A stretch of 64,000 bases of DNA from Dehalococcoidia bacterium (GTDB taxonomy: Bacteria > Chloroflexota > Dehalococcoidia > Plut-88900), in NCBI GenBank assembly GCA_965197585.1, contig OZ240215.1:640001-704000 (forward strand), in the 5' to 3' direction. The first letter of the stretch is position 1. Each line of letters opens with the position of its first letter. A program made the translations under genes and the position numbers. The notes under the pieces were generated by a model. The model had not been told where the DNA came from. It saw nothing but the letters and a program-made list of their open reading frames with translations, and did no database searches. Shown here one piece after another: positions 19,216 to 54,202 of this stretch.

Positions 19216-19338
19216 CGGTGTGCCTCCGTCACAGTGGAAGTAGATAAAAGGCGAATGGTGATCCAAGCGCTAGATTAACACGGCGCACAAGTGTCAAGCT
19301 GCATGATCCCGTTCACATAGAGGGGTGACATCACCCCC

Positions 19339-20649
19339 CGTGCGACCTCAAAATTGATGGTTACCGGGAGAGGGAATTGACCTCATAATTGCGGTTACCG
19401 GCAGTGTTCCAGGATAGCGGCTGACCCTGACGCCATGCTAGCCCCAGCAGCTTGTCGGTCTCGGCATCGATCTGACGGCTCAGCCAGAGCGGATTGAGCG
19501 ACAGGTAGAGCTTCTCCAGCAACATCTGCCGAGTTCGTGAGACTGCACCGCTGCTGAGCATCCGTTGGTACGGGGTCGCTCCCTCGTCGTGGTGTCGGAT
19601 GACCTTGGCCCTGTGCCCACTCCTCGCAGTGAGTCTTCGGACCGGCTGAAAGAAGTTCACGTGAAGCCTCGCCAGCGAGTAGACCTCGGTGAGTTGTTTG
19701 AAGGCCGCTGACGAGGCGTACCGTGCGTGTCCGGTCAGACGCCGCACCACAGCACCGTTCTTCTGCTCGACGTGGGCGCTGTCGTTCTTACGGTAGGGCC
19801 TGCTCCTGGTGAAGCTGATCCCGTTCTCCTCGCAGTAGGTGTAGAGCCCTCTGTTGATGAACTCTGACCCATTATCGCTGTCCAGGCCCAGGAGAGGGAC
19901 GGGCAGCCTCCGATGCATCCTGCGTATGGCAGCTCCCACACGCTCCTGTGTCTTACCCCAGACCACGTCCATATCCACCCACCCAGTGGCCACGTCCACC
20001 GCCGTAACCGTCCACAGGTGGAACCCCTCAACCGTCGGACCGCAGTGTGCCACCGTGTCCACCTCGACAAAGCCCGGCCTCGCATCGTCCCAGTCCCTGA
20101 AGGTACGCACGGCAATGCGGTTCCTAAGCAGTGTCCCGGGCTTGGTCAGGCTGTGCGTCCTCTTTCTAACGGGCACCTGGTCCGCAGCCAGGAGCCGCTC
20201 CAGAGTTGCCGCACTTGCACGCCTGAGCAGAGTATCAGTGGCAGGGTCGATCTCCAACTCTCCGAATGCCTCCAGTCGTGACGCCATCTCCCCCACAAAG
20301 GGCTGCAGCCTCCTGGCTCCGATGCCGCTGGCAGCCTCGTGAACCACCCTGGCCGCCGCCGCCACCTCAGGACCGTACTCGACCGGTCTACCCACACGGC
20401 CGCCTCTCCCCTTTCGAGTCCGACCGGACAGCAGCCGGACGGCCGACTTCCTGTGGTAGCCGGTCACAGCTACCACCTCGTCGAGGATCCTTCCCTTCTC
20501 GGTCCTGTCGGCCTCGCGGTACCTGTCCCGCTGTCGTTCGCAGTACTCTTGAATGCTCACTCGGTTCACGATTACCTCCCCGTGGTTTGGGTAACCGTAA
20601 TTTTGAGGTGCATTCCCCCGCTCGGTAACCAAAATTATGAAGTCATGCG
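19339..20649 (-). mobile_element. Insertion sequence (integrase-core DDE; IS481/ISNCY-like)
   Basis: About 60-bp imperfect terminal inverted repeats, each with two ACYTCAWAATT..GGTTACC units; flanked by CCCCC/CCCTC. Confidence 0.85.
19361..20569 (-). CDS. DDE transposase
   Basis: GYHRKSAVRLL, EVDTVAHCG, DSDNGSEF, SRPYRKND.AHVEQKN, NFFQP, TPYQR; GGAGG RBS before GTG 20569. Confidence 0.92.
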   Translation of the reverse strand: MNRVSIQEYCERQRDRYREADRTEKGRILDEVVAVTGYHRKSAVRLLSGRTRKGRGGRVGRPVEYGPEVAAAARVVHEAASGIGARRLQPFVGEMASRLEAFGELEIDPATDTLLRRASAATLERLLAADQVPVRKRTHSLTKPGTLLRNRIAVRTFRDWDDARPGFVEVDTVAHCGPTVEGFHLWTVTAVDVATGWVDMDVVWGKTQERVGAAIRRMHRRLPVPLLGLDSDNGSEFINRGLYTYCEENGISFTRSRPYRKNDSAHVEQKNGAVVRRLTGHARYASSAAFKQLTEVYSLARLHVNFFQPVRRLTARSGHRAKVIRHHDEGATPYQRMLSSGAVSRTRQMLLEKLYLSLNPLWLSRQIDAETDKLLGLAWRQGQPLSWNTAGNRNYEVNSLSR

Positions 20650-20654
20650 CCCTC

Positions 20655-20684
20655 TTGACATTATAAGTACCTATGTTCTATATT
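20655..20684 (+). promoter_or_regulatory. sigma70 promoter with overlapping LexA-type box (element copy 1)
   Basis: TTGACA-N18-TATATT; GTAC-CTAT-GTTC at 20667-20678. Confidence 0.75.
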
Positions 20685-21380
20685 ACAGCCAGGTCTAGAC
20701 CACCTAACCCAACCACCTTAAGGAGGAACCAAAAACCCAGGGAAGCCCCCGAGGACTCAACGCCTCAGCCCATCCCAACGGCCCTCGCGCAGGCCCGCGG
20801 CTCAAGCAACCGACGCCATCTCCTCATCCCCACCGGGTCCCGTGCCCCCTTCCCTGACCACTAGGCGATGGAAGACGCCCTGGACCGTACTTGAAAAGTC
20901 TCCTCACGGAGCAACCTTGTCCCATGAGCGGAACGGGGCAGCCCGTAGCCGAGGACCGCTCGGCTCTCTGTCCGCTTCCCAAATAAACTGGGCTGCCGCC
21001 GTCTCCCGGCTCCGGGACATCGTCGGCTAACTGGATACCCCGTACTCCTGCGAGGGGAACTGACCCTGGACTTTCCCCTTCCTGCACCCGCCTACGGCGG
21101 ACAGCGCAGCCAACCCTGCATCGGAGCCTATGACGGATGACGGACCCGTACGTCCGACCATACTTCCAGGTCTAGGCGGCGGCGGAGACCCGTCCCACGC
21201 TCCCGGGACGCCTCCATGCCCGCATTATCTAAATGTAGGGAGCCTAATCCAGCAAGCGTCTTTCATCGCCAACCCAAAACCTAACAGACAGAACGGAAAC
21301 CGAAACCCCACAATCTAAGATCCGCCTCTGGAGGACTGAAGAAAAGGCCAGTGTGTCACTAACCTATCGAACGAGTACAC
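20685..21380 (+). ncRNA. Candidate structured ncRNA, repeated element copy 1
   Basis: Ends homologous to 31221-32040; arms 20864-20878 and 21256-21270 are complementary; nested hairpins; no conserved ORF. Confidence 0.5.
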
Positions 21381-21453
21381 TGCTTTGCCAACCTTCGCAC
21401 GTTAGTGTTACGCTGACGCTCTAGCTCCGCAAATTCAGCCCTCGGATCTCATT

Positions 21454-22779
21454 ATGGCTGATCCAGTTGGCCCCCAGGCAGGCCGGTCCTCCCGCAGTCC
21501 TCTGTTCTATGGGTGGCTGATTGTCGGGTTATGCCTATTCATCAACTTCGTTTCTCTGGGTGGGCGCAGCAGCTTCACTGTCTTCGTTATACCCATGAGC
21601 GACGACTTCGGATGGTCCCGAAGCGAAATCTCGCTCGCTGCGTCAATCGGTCTGCTGGTCAACGGCCTTACCCAGCCCTTCCTTGGCAGACTGTATGACC
21701 GGTACGGCGCCCGGAGAATCGTTATCCCCAGCCTTCTCGTCCTGGGTGTGGCCACTGTTCTGCTCATGCAGACCTTCCACATCCTGTTCCTCATCGCCCT
21801 TTTCGGCATAGTTTCGTCTGTTGCCACCAGTGGGGTGGGGGACCCGATAACCGGTGCTATGTTGGCAAAGTGGTTCCGCCGACATCGCGCTACTGTCCTG
21901 GGCATCAGCATGGCCGGTGCATCCATAGGTGGAATGCTGCTGGTGCCCTTCACCCAATACCTCATAGAAATAACTCATTGGAGAACGGCGTGGGCCGTGC
22001 TAGGCGCCTTGCTCCTAGTATTTGCCCTGCCGGCAGCCTTCCTCATTATCAGAGAGAATCCCGAGAAGATGGGTCTCCTACCCGACGGAGATGCCACCCC
22101 AATTCGAGAGGTGGGGAAGAGCAGCCAACCGGCTGCAGAGCCGGCTAAGGGCCCGTTGGAAACGGAGTCCTGGGCCCACGCCTTCCGCTCCGCTCCTATC
22201 TGGCAAATGTGCGGCGCCTATTTCGTTTGTGGCGCTACCACCGCGATCATGGGGACCCACTTTGTTCCTTACGCCGTGGACAAGGGTTTCACGGAGTCAA
22301 CCGCTGCCCTGGCCTTCGGAATTATGAATGGGCTGAACATAGTGGGAGTGGTGGGGATAAGCCTTATCTCCGATAAGATGGGAAGAAAGAACTTGCTGGG
22401 CCTGGTATACGCTGGTCGGGGATTCGGATACGCCGTGCTCTTGCTGGTTCCAGGGGGCTGGGGATTGTGGAGCTTTGTGGGGATAGCAGGCTTTTCATGG
22501 TGGGCAACCGCCCCACTCACCACCTCCCTCACCGCCGATGTGTACGGCGTCAAGAGGCTGGGCACTATCAGCAGCATCGCCTTCCTGGCCCATCAGATCG
22601 GAAGCGCAGCCAGTGTCCAGTTCGCAGGGGTAATGCACGATGTCACCGGCAATTACTTCATTCCCTTCAGTATTGTCGGCCTGCTCCTGATTCCTGCCGC
22701 ACTGTCTTCCTTCACCATCCAGGAAAAGAAATACTCTATCAAGTATCAGACCCCGAGCCCCACGCTATCCCCTCCGTAG
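21454..22779 (+). CDS. MFS transporter
   Basis: FYGWLIV, GRLYDRYGARR, ISDKMGRK. Confidence 0.9.
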   Translation: MADPVGPQAGRSSRSPLFYGWLIVGLCLFINFVSLGGRSSFTVFVIPMSDDFGWSRSEISLAASIGLLVNGLTQPFLGRLYDRYGARRIVIPSLLVLGVATVLLMQTFHILFLIALFGIVSSVATSGVGDPITGAMLAKWFRRHRATVLGISMAGASIGGMLLVPFTQYLIEITHWRTAWAVLGALLLVFALPAAFLIIRENPEKMGLLPDGDATPIREVGKSSQPAAEPAKGPLETESWAHAFRSAPIWQMCGAYFVCGATTAIMGTHFVPYAVDKGFTESTAALAFGIMNGLNIVGVVGISLISDKMGRKNLLGLVYAGRGFGYAVLLLVPGGWGLWSFVGIAGFSWWATAPLTTSLTADVYGVKRLGTISSIAFLAHQIGSAASVQFAGVMHDVTGNYFIPFSIVGLLLIPAALSSFTIQEKKYSIKYQTPSPTLSPP

Positions 22780-31069: not shown

Positions 31070-31191
31070 GCTCGTAGACCTCCATTTGTAATTGAGTGCA
31101 GCGATATAGTGCGGAACTTAAGACATGATATCACGAGGTTATGGCCGTACATGCTTTTATCCCGTTCACATAGAGGAGTGACATCATCCCC

Positions 31192-31220
31192 TTGACTTCA
31201 TAAGACACATGTTCTATTAT
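31192..31220 (+). promoter_or_regulatory. sigma70 promoter with degenerate LexA-type box (element copy 2)
   Basis: TTGACT-N17-TATTAT; AGAC-ACAT-GTTC at 31203-31214. Confidence 0.65.
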
Positions 31221-32040
31221 TGGGCCAGTCTAGACCCGACACCCACCTTAAGGAGGTACCAAAAACTAGGGAAGCCCACCCGGCCCCTGAGGACTCAACG
31301 TCTAAGCCCATCCCAACGGCCCTCGCGCAGGCCCGCGGCTCAAGCAAAAGTCGCCATCTCCTCATCCCATCGGGTCCCGTGCCCCTTCCCTGACTCCCAG
31401 GCGATGGAAGAAGCCCTGGCTTTTTACTCCCACCCCTCTCCTGCCATCCCCCTCTCCGTCATTCCGGCCCTCGAGCCGGAATCCAGGGGCGGGGTGCACG
31501 GAGAGATTACAACAAGGGTGAAAGGAGATGTACTCGCGGACCGTTTGACCCCCATAGAGAACCGTCTCGAAGTTCGGACCGCATTGCAAGAGTTAGCGCG
31601 CTACGGCGAGGGGGTGCCGGAGGATTTGCTCCATATCACTCCGGCAAACTAGGACATCATCAGTTAGGCTGTGGGGCCACAGCTGGATCACTGGCCCCGT
31701 CGTGCCCATAGCGGCATACAGCCCCGAAGGAGCCTCTGACGGACATCCTGCCCTGGATCGGTCCGTGAATATAATCGAGCAAAGGGCACGGCCGGCTGCA
31801 AGTCCCTCCCTCTCAGGCGGGGCCTGCTCTCCAGGTCCCCCGACAGCCGGAACACCCGCAAAGAGAGAATGCAAAGCCACTTAGAGGGCAAAAGGGCATC
31901 TTCCATCGCCAACCCAAAACCTAACAGACAGAACTGAAACCGAAACCCCACAATCGAAGATGGAACATCCGCCTTGGGTGGATCCGCCTCTGGAGAACTG
32001 AAGAAAAGGCCGGTGTGTCACTAATCTACCGAACGAGTAC
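31221..32040 (+). ncRNA. Candidate structured ncRNA, repeated element copy 2
   Basis: Ends homologous to copy 1; arms 31400-31417 and 31893-31910 are complementary. Confidence 0.5.
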
Positions 32041-32130
32041 ATGCTTTTGACACCCCCCCAGCCATTAAATATAATCGCGCAGCGGCCACTATCCTGATAG
32101 CCGCTTTCTATTTCCACACAGGAGTAGCCA

Positions 32131-40157: not shown

Positions 40158-41758
<1,601 letters not shown>

Positions 41759-43561: not shown

Positions 43562-43804
43562 TTAAGCTTGGGGGGTTGAAGGGCTTTGACGGTGCGATGG
43601 AGGTTTTGCATGGCGGGGTCGGTGAGTCGCAAAGAGTGGAGGGAAAGGCGGTCCATAAAGGCGGAGAGTGCGAGGGCGGGTATGGGGGACGAGGGCGAGG
43701 ATGGCTGCGAGTTCCCGCAGGCGGCGGGAGTTCTTGCCGTGCTTGAAAGCGTTGTAGTTTCCTTTGGGTGCGCCGGCGCCGGGCCGGCGGCCTCCTCTAG
43801 GCAT
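43562..43804 (-). CDS. Small basic protein with GAPKGNxNAxKHG motif (possibly frameshifted)
   Basis: GGAGG RBS 6 nt before ATG; MPRGGRRPGAGAPKGNYNAFKHG. Confidence 0.6.
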   Translation of the reverse strand: MPRGGRRPGAGAPKGNYNAFKHGKNSRRLRELAAILALVPHTRPRTLRLYGPPFPPLFATHRPRHAKPPSHRQSPSTPQA

Positions 43805-43861: not shown

Positions 43862-44470
43862 GCGATGGAAGGTCCGAGACTCTTAACCAGGAAGACAACG
43901 ACACCTGCGTCGACGCGGTTGGTCCGCCTAAGCGGATGTTTTGCGTCGGCGGCAATCCTGGGTGATCCCCACGCGTGTCTGAGGAGACTTACCGAAGTCG
44001 AGGGGGTCTCTGCGTGGGGCTTATCCGTGCGCCGGCAGCGCTCGACCGCTCCGGGGGACGGGTGTATAGACTCGACGCCGTGGTTAGCCGAACGGGGAAG
44101 TCCGGGGGTGACGGGTGTGGAGTCGTAAAAGGGCACGATGGCCCTGAACCTGAGCCCGAGATTAGCGGGCTGAGGGTAAACGCCGACTATGCGGATAGCG
44201 GCGGAGTAAACGCGCCGGGTGAGTGGAGCGTTGAATCGGCAAAGGTCCTTGGAAAGGGGTTGCCGCATATAGCCTATGGACCTTCCATCGCTTGGTAGGG
44301 GGTTGCTGGGGGACACGGTGAAGGAAGAGGAAGTGGGGAGGAGGCGCGTGCCGGGTGCCGGGCGGTCCCACACCGCCCGGGGTCGATGGGGCCTATGAAG
44401 GCTTGTGCGACTCATGGGACTCCTTTGTTCCTTTCCTGATTGGGCTCGACGTAGGGTGTCGAGGTCTGAG
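43862..44470 (-). ncRNA. Candidate structured ncRNA, repeated element copy 3 (divergent)
   Basis: Perfect 14-bp arms at 44278-44291 and 43862-43875; same promoter architecture as copies 1 and 2. Confidence 0.45.
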
Positions 44471-44474
44471 GGGT

Positions 44475-44504
44475 AATATAGTACATATGTTCACATCAGG
44501 TCAA
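44475..44504 (-). promoter_or_regulatory. sigma70 promoter with LexA-type box (element copy 3)
   Basis: TTGACC-N18-TATATT; GAAC-ATAT-GTAC at 44492-44481. Confidence 0.75.
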
Positions 44505-44545
44505 GGGGTTGATGTCACTTTTTGCCAAGTGGGATCAACCTCATC

Positions 44546-44619
44546 CTAGCCCTCTCCCGTCAAAGGGAGAGGGGATAGGACTCCGCCCCCCAGATTCCTC
44601 GCGGGGCCTCGGAATGACA
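44546..44619. repeat. REP-like palindromes
   Basis: CCCTCTCCC-GTCAAA-GGGAGAGGG and AGATTCCTCGCGGGGCCTCGGAATGACA; the latter recurs at 56312-56339. Confidence 0.75.
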
Positions 44620-44652
44620 GTGTAGGGGGGCTTGGTTGGGACGACGGCGGGC

Positions 44653-53524: not shown

Positions 53525-54202
53525 CTAAGATCCGGGGCCCAACTCCCGAGGGGTGGATTGGTCCGTACCCGCCTTTTCACTCTTGCCAAGCCGACGGTAA
53601 AGACTTTCACGGTCATCGTAGGCTTCGGTGTAGGACTTGTCCAGGTTAATTGCCTGGGTTAGGTCTTTAATTGCCTCGGGCAGACGGCCCTTATCGGCGA
53701 GCAGCAGTGCTCTCTCGTGGTAGGCCTCCGGGAGATTTGGATCGCTGATAATGGCCTTGTCCAGGGACTCGAGGGCTCGGGCGACGAGCCTTGGCTCGGA
53801 TCTGGGTGGAGCCGTTTCTGCCTGTTTGGCATAGACGATTCCTACGTTAAGCAGGGCTCGGGCGTCCTTCGGATTTATTTTCAAGGCCTTCTTGTATTCC
53901 TTGAGCGCGGAAGAAAAATGCCCTTTCCTGAGGTAGCAGGTGCCGAGGTTGCTGAGGAGAGCGCTGTCTTGCGGGCCGAACTTTTTGGCCGAGTTCAGGT
54001 CCCGGATGGCGGCGTTCAGGTTGCCGAGCCCGCCGTGAGCGAGACCTCGGTAGAAGTATGCGTGGGCATCCTTGGAGTTAAGGGCAAGGGCTTCATCAAG
54101 GTGGACTAGGGCATCTTCAAAGCGCCCATCTTTGACGGCTTTTTCGCCTTTACGGGAGCCGACGACCCAACTGAGGCCCCGGATTTTGTCAAGGATGCCC
54201 AT
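53525..54202 (-). CDS. TPR protein
   Basis: Several TPR repeats. Confidence 0.85.
   Translation of the reverse strand: MGILDKIRGLSWVVGSRKGEKAVKDGRFEDALVHLDEALALNSKDAHAYFYRGLAHGGLGNLNAAIRDLNSAKKFGPQDSALLSNLGTCYLRKGHFSSALKEYKKALKINPKDARALLNVGIVYAKQAETAPPRSEPRLVARALESLDKAIISDPNLPEAYHERALLLADKGRLPEAIKDLTQAINLDKSYTEAYDDRESLYRRLGKSEKAGTDQSTPRELGPGS

What the first reader, a model, noticed from the sequence alone, without database searches (positions are those of the whole stretch)
20650..21380. Candidate SOS-controlled large structured ncRNA family, present in three diverged copies
Seen: three loci share the same architecture. Each has a GTGACATCA motif, a TTGAC-N17/18-TAT(A/T)(T/A)T promoter with a LexA-like box, a C-rich leader of about 180 nt, and a long-range stem around 377, 475 or 402 nt. 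The stem covaries between copies. Copy 1 pairs GGCGATGGAAGACGC (20864-78) with GCGTCTTTCATCGCC (21256-70) including one G-U wobble, which favours RNA on the promoter strand. Copy 2 pairs GGCGATGGAAGAAGCCCT (31400-17) with AGGGCATCTTCCATCGCC (31893-910). Copy 3 (minus strand) pairs GCGATGGAAGGTCC (44291-78) with GGACCTTCCATCGC (43875-62). The copy 1 interior folds into nested helices (TGTCCC/GGGACA, GGCAGCCC/GGGCTGCC, AGCCGAG/CTCGGCT, AGGGGAA/TTCCCCT, CGTCCC/GGGACG). Homologous ORFs are out of frame between copies. Inference: a multicopy, DNA-damage-inducible structured RNA of about 400-700 nt, perhaps excised by RNase III at the closing stem. I recognise no known family.
Basis: partly seen in the sequence, partly recalled or inferred. 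Interest (0 to 1): 0.9.

Follow-up and report, generated by a model that had tools for sequence, protein, structure and literature searches.

The report
Mobile element carrying a structured RNA
The flagged region is one copy of a jumping DNA element, present dozens of times in this bacterium and its closest relatives, that encodes no protein but carries its own promoter and a large folded RNA, and that tends to land just in front of host gene promoters.

Summary
They are not a three-copy RNA gene. They belong to a dispersed element of about 0.7-0.9 kb with at least 57 copies in this 3.43-Mb genome. It was found in 8 of 8 congeners and in no other genus searched. The element has imperfect terminal inverted repeats that resemble those of a resident IS481-like insertion sequence. 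It has 5-bp target duplications and empty sites at orthologous loci in sister species, so it is mobile and non-autonomous. It usually sits 5 bp upstream of a host TTGAC (-35) box, co-oriented with the downstream gene. Copy 1 really spans 19304-21379 and is split by an unrelated IS. Every copy aligned keeps a near-consensus promoter, an invariant AAGGAGG leader and the closing stem GGCGATGGAAG/CTTCCATCGCC. The 300-550-nt cores fall into at least six subfamilies. A shared sub-domain shows compensatory changes (14 of 27 pairs; 93% paired against 29-47% when partners are slid). The sense strand folds far better than shuffles (z -5.7). LexA control is not supported: 0 of 42 parsed promoters have the canonical box. 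Transcription is not shown. There is no match in Rfam, plasmids or phages.

The parts
19299..19303 (+). 5' copy of the target-site duplication of copy 1 (CTGCA)
   Evidence: The 3' copy CTGCT lies at 21380-21384. The empty site in G003 reads ...CAAGCTGTTTTGCC.
19304..19339 (+). 5' terminal inverted repeat of copy 1 (TGATCCCGTTCACATAGAGGGGTGACATCACC...), cut off from the rest of the element
   Evidence: The same 5' end is found in about 20 copies. It matches the 3' end at 18 of 30 positions with one indel, p about 4e-4.
19340..20648 (-). Unrelated single-copy IS inserted into copy 1. Its transposase ORF is 19361-20632 on the minus strand (423 aa, rve domain, weakly IS481-like). It has its own inverted repeats. 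It is not part of the element.
   Evidence: Pfam rve, E 8.7e-9. One copy in the genome. NCBIfam IS481, 50 bits. Ends read.
20655..20684 (+). Element promoter TTGACA-18-TATATT. The spacer contains the dyad GTACCTATGTTC (20667-20678).
   Evidence: 11 of 12 consensus positions. The -35/-10 pair is visible in all 57 aligned copies. Dyad types are listed.
20691..20863 (+). C-rich leader with invariant AAGGAGGAAC, GAGGACTCAACG, AGCCCATCCCAA and CGCCATCTCCTC, and one hairpin that changes on both arms between copies. The start at about 20691 is inferred from the -10 box.
   Evidence: The leader is conserved in sequence and shows little covariation overall (RNAalifold covariation term -0.12).
20864..20878 (+). 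5' arm of the closing stem
20879..21255 (+). Structured core of the subfamily that contains copy 1 (10 members in this genome). It includes the sub-domain 21042-21173 that is shared with other subfamilies: three hairpins plus a candidate pseudoknot helix.
21256..21270 (+). 3' arm of the closing stem
21271..21345 (+). G-poor, C/A-rich tail with an embedded small REP-like hairpin. No intrinsic terminator on this strand.
21346..21379 (+). 3' terminal inverted repeat (...GGCCAGTGTGTCACTAACCTATCGAACGAGTACA)
   Evidence: Its reverse complement matches the left inverted repeat of the resident IS481-like IS at 19 of 30 positions (p < 2e-4).
21380..21384 (+). 3' copy of the target-site duplication (CTGCT). 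It is followed by the host TTGCCA box of the MFS transporter gene (21454-22779).
31157..32041 (+). Copy 2, a complete 885-bp element with a different core subfamily (12 members). TSD TGCTT at 31152-31156 and 32042-32046. The host sdhA promoter TTGACA-17-TATAAT follows at 32047-32075.
   Evidence: R1 hit at 31663-31782, E 2e-37.
43862..44520 (-). Copy 3, a member with the second leader family and a GGTCC/GGACC-type closing stem. Promoter TTGAC at 44504-44500 and TATATT at 44480-44475. The 3' limit is not defined.

Best explanation
The region is one copy of a genus-restricted family of non-autonomous DNA transposons. They resemble MITEs but are larger, about 0.7-0.9 kb. Their ends and 5-bp target duplication are those of IS481-type elements. 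They are presumably moved in trans by an IS481-family DDE transposase; this step is inferred. They integrate preferentially 5 bp upstream of a host TTGAC (-35) box, in the same orientation as the downstream gene, and the host promoter stays intact at the 3' junction. Instead of a transposase gene they carry a transcription unit. It consists of a near-consensus sigma-70-type promoter with a conserved dyad in its spacer, a sequence-conserved C-rich leader with an invariant AAGGAGG, and a 300-550-nt multi-helix core closed by GGCGATGGAAG/CTTCCATCGCC plus a covarying extension, followed by a G-poor tail. The core fold is kept by compensatory changes across subfamilies and is specific to the promoter strand. 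I therefore infer that the payload is an RNA under selection. Cores are exchanged between copies by recombination through the conserved leader and trailer. What the RNA does is not shown. My preferred guess is an element-serving or regulatory RNA whose synthesis is gated by a repressor that binds the dyad.
For: Copy number and range. There are 57 leader copies in the own genome. All 8 of 8 congeners match, with 60-119 first-look candidates each; 0 of 32 genomes of other genera match. Core model R1 hits the own genome and 5 of 5 congeners sampled, and 0 of 145 other genomes of the class. All 92 listed exact matches to a 28-nt leader pattern lie in 8 Dehalococcoidia MAG assemblies.

Mobility. 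The sdhA upstream site is occupied in 3 of 9 genomes and the MFS site in 1 of 9. The empty sites align precisely.

Target duplication. Of 15 complete class-A copies, 7 have a perfect 5-bp duplication and 4 have one mismatch (re-read in 5-bp register).

Ends. The 5' and 3' ends match at 18 of 30 positions with one indel (p about 4e-4). The 3' end matches the IS481-like left inverted repeat at 19 of 30 (p < 2e-4). That IS has 21 copies and also makes a 5-bp duplication. Its transposase is nearest to NCBIfam IS481 (184 bits).

Target. TTG[ACT] follows N5 in 15 of 24 defined 3' flanks, against 2.6% background. A full -35/-10 arrangement follows in 12 of 24. The downstream ORF is co-oriented in 45 of 57 copies.

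No coding capacity. There are 1-nt indels between copies and no Pfam hits for the spanning ORFs.

RNA fold. 93.1% of cells are paired, against 83.5% in shuffles and 29-47% with slid partners. 14 of 27 pairs changed on both sides, against 7.8 in shuffles (0 of 500) and 1-5 when slid. Cognate closing-stem extensions give -9.61 kcal/mol, against -7.32 +/- 0.27 for permuted partners (0 of 1000). The sense strand scores z -5.68 and the antisense -2.63. G-U cells number 40 and A-C cells 21.

Cassette exchange. One ancestral insertion at sdhA, with identical unusual junctions, carries three different cores in G000, G005 and G002.
Against: No autonomous copy with these ends was found in this genome. 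The resident IS481-like IS targets a REP sequence, not TTGAC. The mobilising enzyme is therefore unidentified.

The 5' boundary is defined for only about 20 class-A copies. Class-B and other copies are preceded by REP-like repeats and their 5' ends are unresolved.

Transcription is not demonstrated. RNA-library contigs cover the core but give neither strand nor ends and may be DNA carry-over.

The covariation alignment was fitted to the model, and its rows are related paralogues (caveats). SF3, copy 1's own subfamily, is only marginally hit by R1 (E about 0.03). Neither the subfamily of E24/L068 nor any GGTCC-type core was hit.

The leader shows almost no covariation.

The candidate pseudoknot helix has a mismatch in many rows (87.8% paired).

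Gene calls behind the orientation count are crude longest-ORF calls.
Confidence: 0.7

Rival explanations
1. It is an ordinary selfish MITE. The promoter is a relic of a transposase promoter. The internal helices are incidental or act at the DNA level, and no RNA is under selection.
For: TIRs, TSDs, empty sites and no ORF. Copies within a subfamily are about 95% identical, so some conservation is simply recent expansion. The leader lacks covariation. Expression is unproven.
Against: Compensatory changes occur between subfamilies in 14 of 27 pairs and exceed both controls. Cognate stem arms fit better than permuted ones. Folding is strand-asymmetric, z -5.7 against -2.6. The -35/-10 boxes are visible in all 57 aligned copies while the surrounding spacer varies.
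Confidence: 0.15
2. It is a cis-acting long 5' leader or portable promoter module whose purpose is to regulate the downstream host gene, for example by read-through, transcriptional interference or attenuation.
For: Elements sit 5 bp upstream of host -35 boxes (15 of 24) and are co-oriented with the next ORF in 45 of 57 cases. There is no intrinsic terminator on the sense strand.
Against: The downstream genes are unrelated: an MFS transporter, sdhA, prpD and a tRNA. The host promoter is retained intact. The same genes lack the element in sister species. The G-poor tail is compatible with Rho-dependent stopping before the host gene; that point is inference.
Confidence: 0.08
3. It is a LexA-repressed (SOS-inducible) non-mobile ncRNA gene family.
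For: A dyad sits in the promoter spacer of the copies parsed. It matches GAAC-N4-GTTC at 7 of 8 positions in 16 of 42 and at 6 of 8 in most of the rest. The organism has lexA with a canonical box in its own promoter.
Against: 0 of 42 parsed promoters carry the canonical box. Only AC-N4-GT is invariant and the half-sites are often not symmetric. The units are demonstrably mobile.
Confidence: 0.05
4. It encodes small or low-complexity proteins, for example the 82-aa ORF from the ATG in the 5' arm of copy 2 or the 289-aa ORF over copy 3.
For: Open frames exist. ATGGAAG is invariant in the 5' arm.
Against: The frame from that ATG stops after 8 codons in copy 1 and 4 in copy 3. There are 1-nt indels within subfamilies, no Pfam hits and no Shine-Dalgarno at a proper distance.
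Confidence: 0.02

Closest known systems
Bacterial MITEs that carry promoters or are processed as RNA, e.g. Neisseria Correia elements, ERIC, RUP (recalled from general knowledge, not from a call)
   Same: Non-autonomous, multicopy, with TIRs and a TSD, located between genes, able to supply promoters and form RNA hairpins.
   Different: Those elements are about 100-300 bp with one simple hairpin. This one is 0.7-0.9 kb, with a dedicated inward promoter, a conserved leader, a multi-helix covarying core in at least six interchangeable subfamilies, and a preference for the position 5 bp upstream of -35 boxes.
IS481-family insertion sequences
   Same: The 3' terminus reads TGT on its reverse complement (the 5' terminus reads TGA). 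The inverted repeat resembles that of the resident IS481-like IS (19 of 30). The TSD length is the same, 5 bp.
   Different: There is no transposase gene. The target is N5-TTGAC, whereas the resident IS targets the REP motif GTCATTCC|GAGG.
RNA-bearing transposons: IS200/IS605 omega/re-RNA (HEARO), IS110 bridge RNA, group II introns (recalled)
   Same: A mobile element whose non-coding RNA is conserved in structure.
   Different: Those RNAs lie beside and work with an element-encoded protein (TnpB/IscB, IS110 recombinase, IEP), and those elements lack TIR+TSD hallmarks. No such protein is linked here, and Rfam models of those RNAs do not match.
Large orphan bacterial ncRNAs (GOLLD, ROOL, OLE, raiA; recalled, all in Rfam)
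   Same: Size class of 300-600 nt, many helices, unknown function.
   Different: No Rfam hit even at E up to 10. Here there are dozens of copies per genome, on a transposon, restricted to one genus.

Membership tests
MITE / non-autonomous TIR transposon | Terminal inverted repeats | tested here: met
   5' end against reverse complement of 3' end: 18 of 30 with one indel, p about 4e-4. Defined only for class-A copies, about 20.
MITE / non-autonomous TIR transposon | Target-site duplication | tested here: met
   5-bp direct repeats: 7 of 15 perfect and 4 of 15 with one mismatch. Of the other 4 (3 of 5 or fewer in register), 3 fit if shifted by one base.
MITE / non-autonomous TIR transposon | No transposase gene; multicopy | tested here: met
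   No Pfam hit for ORFs over the copies. Frameshifting indels. 57 copies.
MITE / non-autonomous TIR transposon | Presence/absence at orthologous sites | tested here: met
   sdhA site occupied in 3 of 9 genomes, MFS site in 1 of 9.
MITE / non-autonomous TIR transposon | Miniature size (usually under about 300-600 bp; recalled) | tested here: not met
   Complete copies measure 731-1100 bp between ends.
IS481 family | Encodes a DDE (rve) IS481-type transposase | tested here: not met
   There is no such ORF inside the element. The only rve ORF in copy 1 belongs to an intruding IS with different ends.
IS481 family | IS481-type ends and TSD | tested here: met
   19 of 30 and 17 of 30 identity to the left and right inverted repeats of the resident IS481-like IS. 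Both make 5-bp TSDs.
IS481 family | Mobilised by an IS481-family transposase | not testable with these tools
   Needs a transposition assay.
LexA (SOS) regulon | Canonical operator GAAC-N4-GTTC at the promoter | tested here: not met
   0 of 42 parsed promoters; 15 of 57 were not parsed by the script. The lexA promoter itself has GAACGCCCGTTC.
LexA (SOS) regulon | LexA binding or DNA-damage induction | not testable with these tools
   Needs EMSA or ChIP, and RNA measured with and without mitomycin C.
Any Rfam 15 family | Covariance-model match | tested here: not met
   At gathering score the only hit in the window is 16S rRNA. At E up to 10 over 20500-21500 there are only three chance-level hits, 10-17 bits.
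Structured non-coding RNA (generic) | Base pairs kept by compensatory change | tested here: met
   with the caveats that the alignment is model-fitted and the rows are paralogues.
Structured non-coding RNA (generic) | Transcribed | tested here: inconclusive
   Only contigs from RNA libraries were available. They give no strand, ends or level.

The most novel reading that the evidence does not exclude
This is an 'RNA-cargo transposon'. It is a DNA transposon family whose selected payload is a large, pseudoknotted, promoter-driven RNA with interchangeable core cassettes. It homes to the upstream edge of sigma-70 -35 boxes. The RNA would act in trans, for example as a ribozyme, as a decoy or sponge for a host or defence factor, or as a cofactor for the element's own spread. 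The dyad-controlled promoter would couple its production to a cellular signal.
Probability: 0.3. Interest if true: 0.85.

Novelty: new variant of a known kind. Interest (0 to 1): 0.66.

Why it matters
Bacterial non-autonomous transposons are usually seen as short, inert hairpins. Here the 'stuffing' is a regulated gene for a 300-550-nt RNA whose fold is preserved while its sequence diversifies into cassettes, and the element appears to select host promoter edges as landing sites. If the RNA is expressed and functional, this would add a protein-free, RNA-only payload class to bacterial mobile DNA. It would also provide a natural system for studying promoter-directed integration. With dozens of paralogues per genome across nine species, it offers an unusually rich data set for solving the structure of a large orphan RNA. 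If the RNA turns out to be inert, the case is still a useful warning: multicopy 'structured RNA' candidates in uncultured genomes can be transposon copies.

Tried and rejected
Rfam. Gathering thresholds over the whole window and E up to 10 over 20500-21500 gave nothing relevant.

Known replicons. blastn 'distant' of 20649-21379 against PLSDB plasmids and INPHARED phages gave no match.

Literature. Three full-text searches found no paper describing this element: IS481/MITE/promoter/non-coding RNA; 'miniature inverted-repeat' with Chloroflexi; non-autonomous/structured RNA/bacterial/transposable element/covariation. I saw only the search listings and abstract starts and read no paper. Supplements are closed.

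Expression. The look-up of sequencing runs listed 6 RNA runs holding 5-9% of the sampled words. I laid 4 of them, all as contigs. In 4 of 4 runs contigs cover parts of the cores, for example a 248-nt contig over 20941-21187. Contigs show neither strand, ends nor level. A REP inside copy 2 inflates depth. DNA carry-over cannot be excluded. I therefore draw no conclusion on transcription or habitat.

Autonomous partner. Pattern searches for both element ends with up to 3-4 mismatches found no pair flanking a transposase gene. The 19-member ORF family next to some elements turned out to be the antisense frame of a 1056-bp IS481-like IS that targets REPs. A 4-member '327-aa ORF' family is in fact further elements with the second leader.

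Class-B 5' ends. A search for the 3'-flank pentamer upstream gave no consistent boundary.

Whole-core alignment. MAFFT plus RNAalifold on 33 type-I cores was too gappy, and mafft-qinsi is not installed. I therefore modelled only a 122-position sub-domain. R1 did not reach the subfamily of E24/L068 or any GGTCC-type core, and it gave one likely false hit at window 54047-54190 (E 0.1). I dropped that hit by tightening the E-value and re-running on 24 of the 55 sources.

Leader. RNAalifold on 38 leaders predicts only weak, sequence-invariant pairings. I make no structural claim for the leader beyond one hairpin, read by eye from that alignment, whose arms change together.

Cores without a leader. 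The scan was confounded because GGTCC-type arms read alike on both strands. I draw no conclusion from it.

Full report
WHAT IS THERE. Copy 1 has TTGACA-18-TATATT at 20655-20684 (11 of 12 consensus positions). It has a C-rich leader and a 15-bp stem, 20864-20878 with 21256-21270, that encloses 377 nt. Copy 2 (arms 31400-31417 and 31893-31910) and copy 3 (minus strand, arms 44291-44278 and 43875-43862) have the same layout. GTGACATCA occurs three times in the window against 0.31 expected. For copy 1 it lies at 19325, not next to the promoter.

IT IS A HIGH-COPY DISPERSED ELEMENT. blastn of the copy-1 leader finds 57 copies in the 3.43-Mb genome. The trailer gives 38 pieces. The leader start and trailer end are 670-863 bp apart. 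Copy 3 belongs to a second leader family that this query missed; it adds roughly 12-20 further members.

All 8 of 8 congeneric genomes have matches, with 60-119 first-look candidates each. None of 32 genomes from other genera does. A covariance model of the core (R1) hits the own genome and 5 of 5 congeners sampled, and 0 of 145 other genomes of the class. An exact 28-nt leader pattern scanned over the GTDB species representatives returned 92 listed stretches, all from eight 'MAG: Dehalococcoidia bacterium' assemblies.

IT IS MOBILE. Upstream of sdhA the element is present in G000, G005 and G002 and absent in the other 6 of 9 genomes. Upstream of the MFS transporter gene it is present only in G000. 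Alignment of occupied and empty sites gives exact junctions.

In the roughly 20 'class-A' copies the 5' terminus is TGATCCCGTTCACATAGAGGGGTGACA. The 3' terminus is ...GTGTCACTAAYCTAYCGAACGAGTACA. These ends are imperfect inverted repeats: 18 of 30 with one indel, p about 4e-4 by shuffling.

I re-read the 15 complete class-A copies in a 5-bp register. The pentamer before the 5' end equals the pentamer after the 3' end in 7 of 15. It differs at one base in 4 of 15. Of the remaining 4, 3 fit if shifted by one base.

No transposase is encoded. The ORFs over the copies have no Pfam hit, and 1-nt indels separate members of one subfamily.

COPY 1 IS LONGER THAN FLAGGED. Its 5' end lies at 19304-19339. 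It is followed by a 1.3-kb single-copy IS (19340-20648; rve transposase at 19361-20632 on the minus strand) that has its own, different inverted repeats. The element resumes at 20649 and ends at 21379. The flanking pentamers are CTGCA and CTGCT, and the empty site in G003 reads CAAGCTGTTTTGCC.

WHICH TRANSPOSON KIND. The genome holds 21 copies of a 1056-bp IS. Its 320-aa transposase is nearest to NCBIfam 'IS481 family transposase' (184 bits, below the curated cut-off of 224). The reverse complement of the element's 3' end matches this IS's left inverted repeat at 19 of 30 positions (p < 2e-4) and its right repeat at 17 of 30 (p about 4e-4).

That IS also makes a 5-bp duplication, but it inserts almost always into the REP motif GTCATTCC|GAGG. 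The element is therefore IS481-like in its ends and duplication. Its mobilising enzyme is not identified, and no autonomous copy with the element's ends exists in this genome.

TARGET CHOICE. In 24 copies with a defined 3' end, positions +6 to +10 after the end read T, T, G, A, C in 22, 20, 20, 16 and 17 cases. TTG[ACT] after N5 occurs in 15 of 24, against 2.6% at random genome positions. A complete -35/-10 arrangement follows in 12 of 24. At sdhA and at the MFS gene this box is present in the empty sites, so it belongs to the host.

With crude longest-ORF gene calls, the next downstream ORF is co-oriented in 45 of 57 copies. The inner part of the IS481-like inverted repeat itself contains TTGACA, and the element's repeat contains GTGACA. 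From this I infer that the transposase is drawn to sequences that resemble its own binding site. This is not tested.

THE PAYLOAD. The -35/-10 pair is visible in all 57 aligned copies. So are an upstream GTGACA and an invariant AAGGAGG(A/T)AC, with no start codon behind it. The blocks GAGGACTCAACG, AGCCCATCCCAA, CGCCATCTCCTC and CAGGCGATGGAAG are also kept.

The cores between the arms are 309-555 nt long across the 83 cores extracted from the own genome and relatives. The own genome's 57 cluster into six subfamilies of 12, 12, 10, 7, 6 and 6 members, plus four singletons.

Promoter class, leader variant, core and trailer are combined mosaically. At the sdhA site one ancestral insertion, with identical unusual junctions, carries three different cores in three species whose SdhA proteins are 95-99% identical. 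This points to cassette exchange by recombination between copies.

IS THE FOLD SELECTED? The evidence has four parts.

1. Closing stem. 56 of 83 cores pair at 14 or more of 15 positions in ungapped register. Another 19 score 11, probably because of a 1-nt bulge. The two main haplotypes of the inner extension, ACGC/GCGT and GTCC/GGAC, differ at three pairs on both sides. Cognate extensions bind at -9.61 kcal/mol, against -7.32 +/- 0.27 for permuted partners (0 of 1000 permutations as low).

2. Sub-domain model. I modelled a 107-128-nt sub-domain shared by several subfamilies from 7 sequences of copy 2's subfamily (R1). R1 finds another subfamily at E 1e-12 to 1e-5, two further types at 1e-15 and 5e-7, and copy 1's subfamily only marginally at about 0.03. 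On the resulting 24-row alignment, three hairpins plus a candidate pseudoknot helix give 93.1% paired cells. Shuffles give 83.5 +/- 0.8 (0 of 500 as high), and slid partners give 29-47%. 14 of 27 pairs changed on both sides, against 7.8 +/- 1.5 in shuffles and 1-5 when slid. The alignment is fitted to the model and its rows are paralogues, so these figures are supportive, not a formal test.

3. Independent check. RNAalifold on a plain MAFFT alignment of 32 sequences independently recovers the long-range helix and one hairpin. 6 of its 11 pairs are compensated.

4. Strand. The sense core of copy 1 folds at -179.9 kcal/mol (z -5.68; 0 of 100 shuffles as stable). The antisense gives z -2.63 (1 of 100). 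G-U cells outnumber A-C cells 40 to 21.

The leader is conserved in sequence and shows almost no covariation.

SOS CONTROL. The organism has lexA, with GAACGCCCGTTC just downstream of its own -10 box, and recA with only a half match. My script parsed the element dyad in 42 of 57 promoters; the anchor regex mis-hit in the other 15. None of the 42 reads GAAC-N4-GTTC. 14 read GAAC-N4-GTGC, 9 GTAC-N4-GTAC, 7 AAAC-N4-GTAC, and the remaining 12 are other variants. Only AC-N4-GT is invariant. A repressor site in the spacer is plausible. That the repressor is LexA is a guess.

WHAT IS NOT SHOWN. Transcription is not shown (contigs only). Transcript ends and processing at the stem are untested. The 5' boundary of the non-class-A copies is unresolved. 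The mobilising transposase is unidentified. The RNA's function is unknown. No intrinsic terminator lies on the sense strand. The G-poor, C/A-rich tail would suit Rho-dependent termination, which is inference.

COMPARISON WITH WHAT IS KNOWN. There is no hit in Rfam, plasmids or phages. Three literature searches found no description (listings only). The element works like a MITE in having TIRs, a TSD, no transposase and many copies. It is two to eight times larger than typical MITEs, and its interior is a promoter-driven, covarying, cassette-diversified RNA gene. It shares ends and TSD length with IS481-type elements but fails the family's defining feature, an encoded transposase. Unlike omega-RNA, bridge-RNA or group II intron systems (recalled from general knowledge), it has no partner protein gene beside it.

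VERDICT. I rate it a new variant of a known kind, interest about 0.66.

Noticed in passing
window 19340-20648: A single-copy IS (423-aa rve transposase on the minus strand, weakly IS481-like at 50 bits) sits inside copy 1, just upstream of the element's own -35 box. Its inverted repeats, GTGCGACCTCAAAATTGATGGTTACCG and its imperfect reverse complement, differ from the element's.
   Followed up: partly
genome-wide, e.g. G000:C1:1768145-1769200 (L065 238-1293): A 1056-bp IS481-like IS in 21 copies at 96-99.8% identity. Nearly all copies are inserted in the REP motif GTCATTCC|GAGG with a 5-bp duplication ATTCC. The longest ORF there is the antisense frame and has no Pfam hit, a trap for gene callers.
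   Followed up: yes
window 31455-31490, 44580-44625 and many other places: Several families of small REP-like palindromes litter intergenic DNA and are nested in or next to the elements, for example GTCATTCCGGCC..CGAGCCGGAATCC and TCCGCCTNAGGCGGA. The one inside copy 2 reaches word depths above 3000 in RNA-library contigs.
   Followed up: no
G000:C1:3404961-3405010 (outside the window): A solo 5' end of the element (TGATCCCGTTCACATAGAGGGGTGACATCACCCCCTTG) is fused to the groES promoter, just upstream of a CIRCE operator. The pattern is what a deletion between the element's -35 region and the duplicated target plus host -35 would leave.
   Followed up: partly
L013, L014, L015 (sdhA upstream in G000, G005, G002): The same insertion, with identical junctions, carries three different core subfamilies in three closely related species. 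This indicates cassette replacement by recombination between copies.
   Followed up: partly
window 40161-41758 (-): The 16S rRNA gene spans 1598 nt for a 1533-position Rfam model, so it carries about 65 extra nucleotides somewhere. I did not look further.
   Followed up: no
window 43565-43804 (-): An 80-aa ORF with a good Shine-Dalgarno lies directly after the 3' arm of copy 3 (MPRGGRRPGAGAPKGNYNAFKHGK...). There is only one partial paralogue in the genome (31 aa, 58% identity). Function unknown.
   Followed up: partly
G000:C1:1445212-1447095 and three paralogous loci: What my ORF caller listed as a 4-member '327-aa protein family' without a Pfam hit is a further subfamily of the element. It has the second leader, arms CATGGAAGGTYCCCGGAC and GTCCGGGACCTTCCAT, and a core of about 480 nt.
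   Followed up: partly
run X6: One of the RNA-library runs whose contigs match this stretch at 90-99% identity is labelled 'sponge metagenome' by the tool. A relative of this organism may therefore live in sponges. I draw no habitat claim from it.
   Followed up: no
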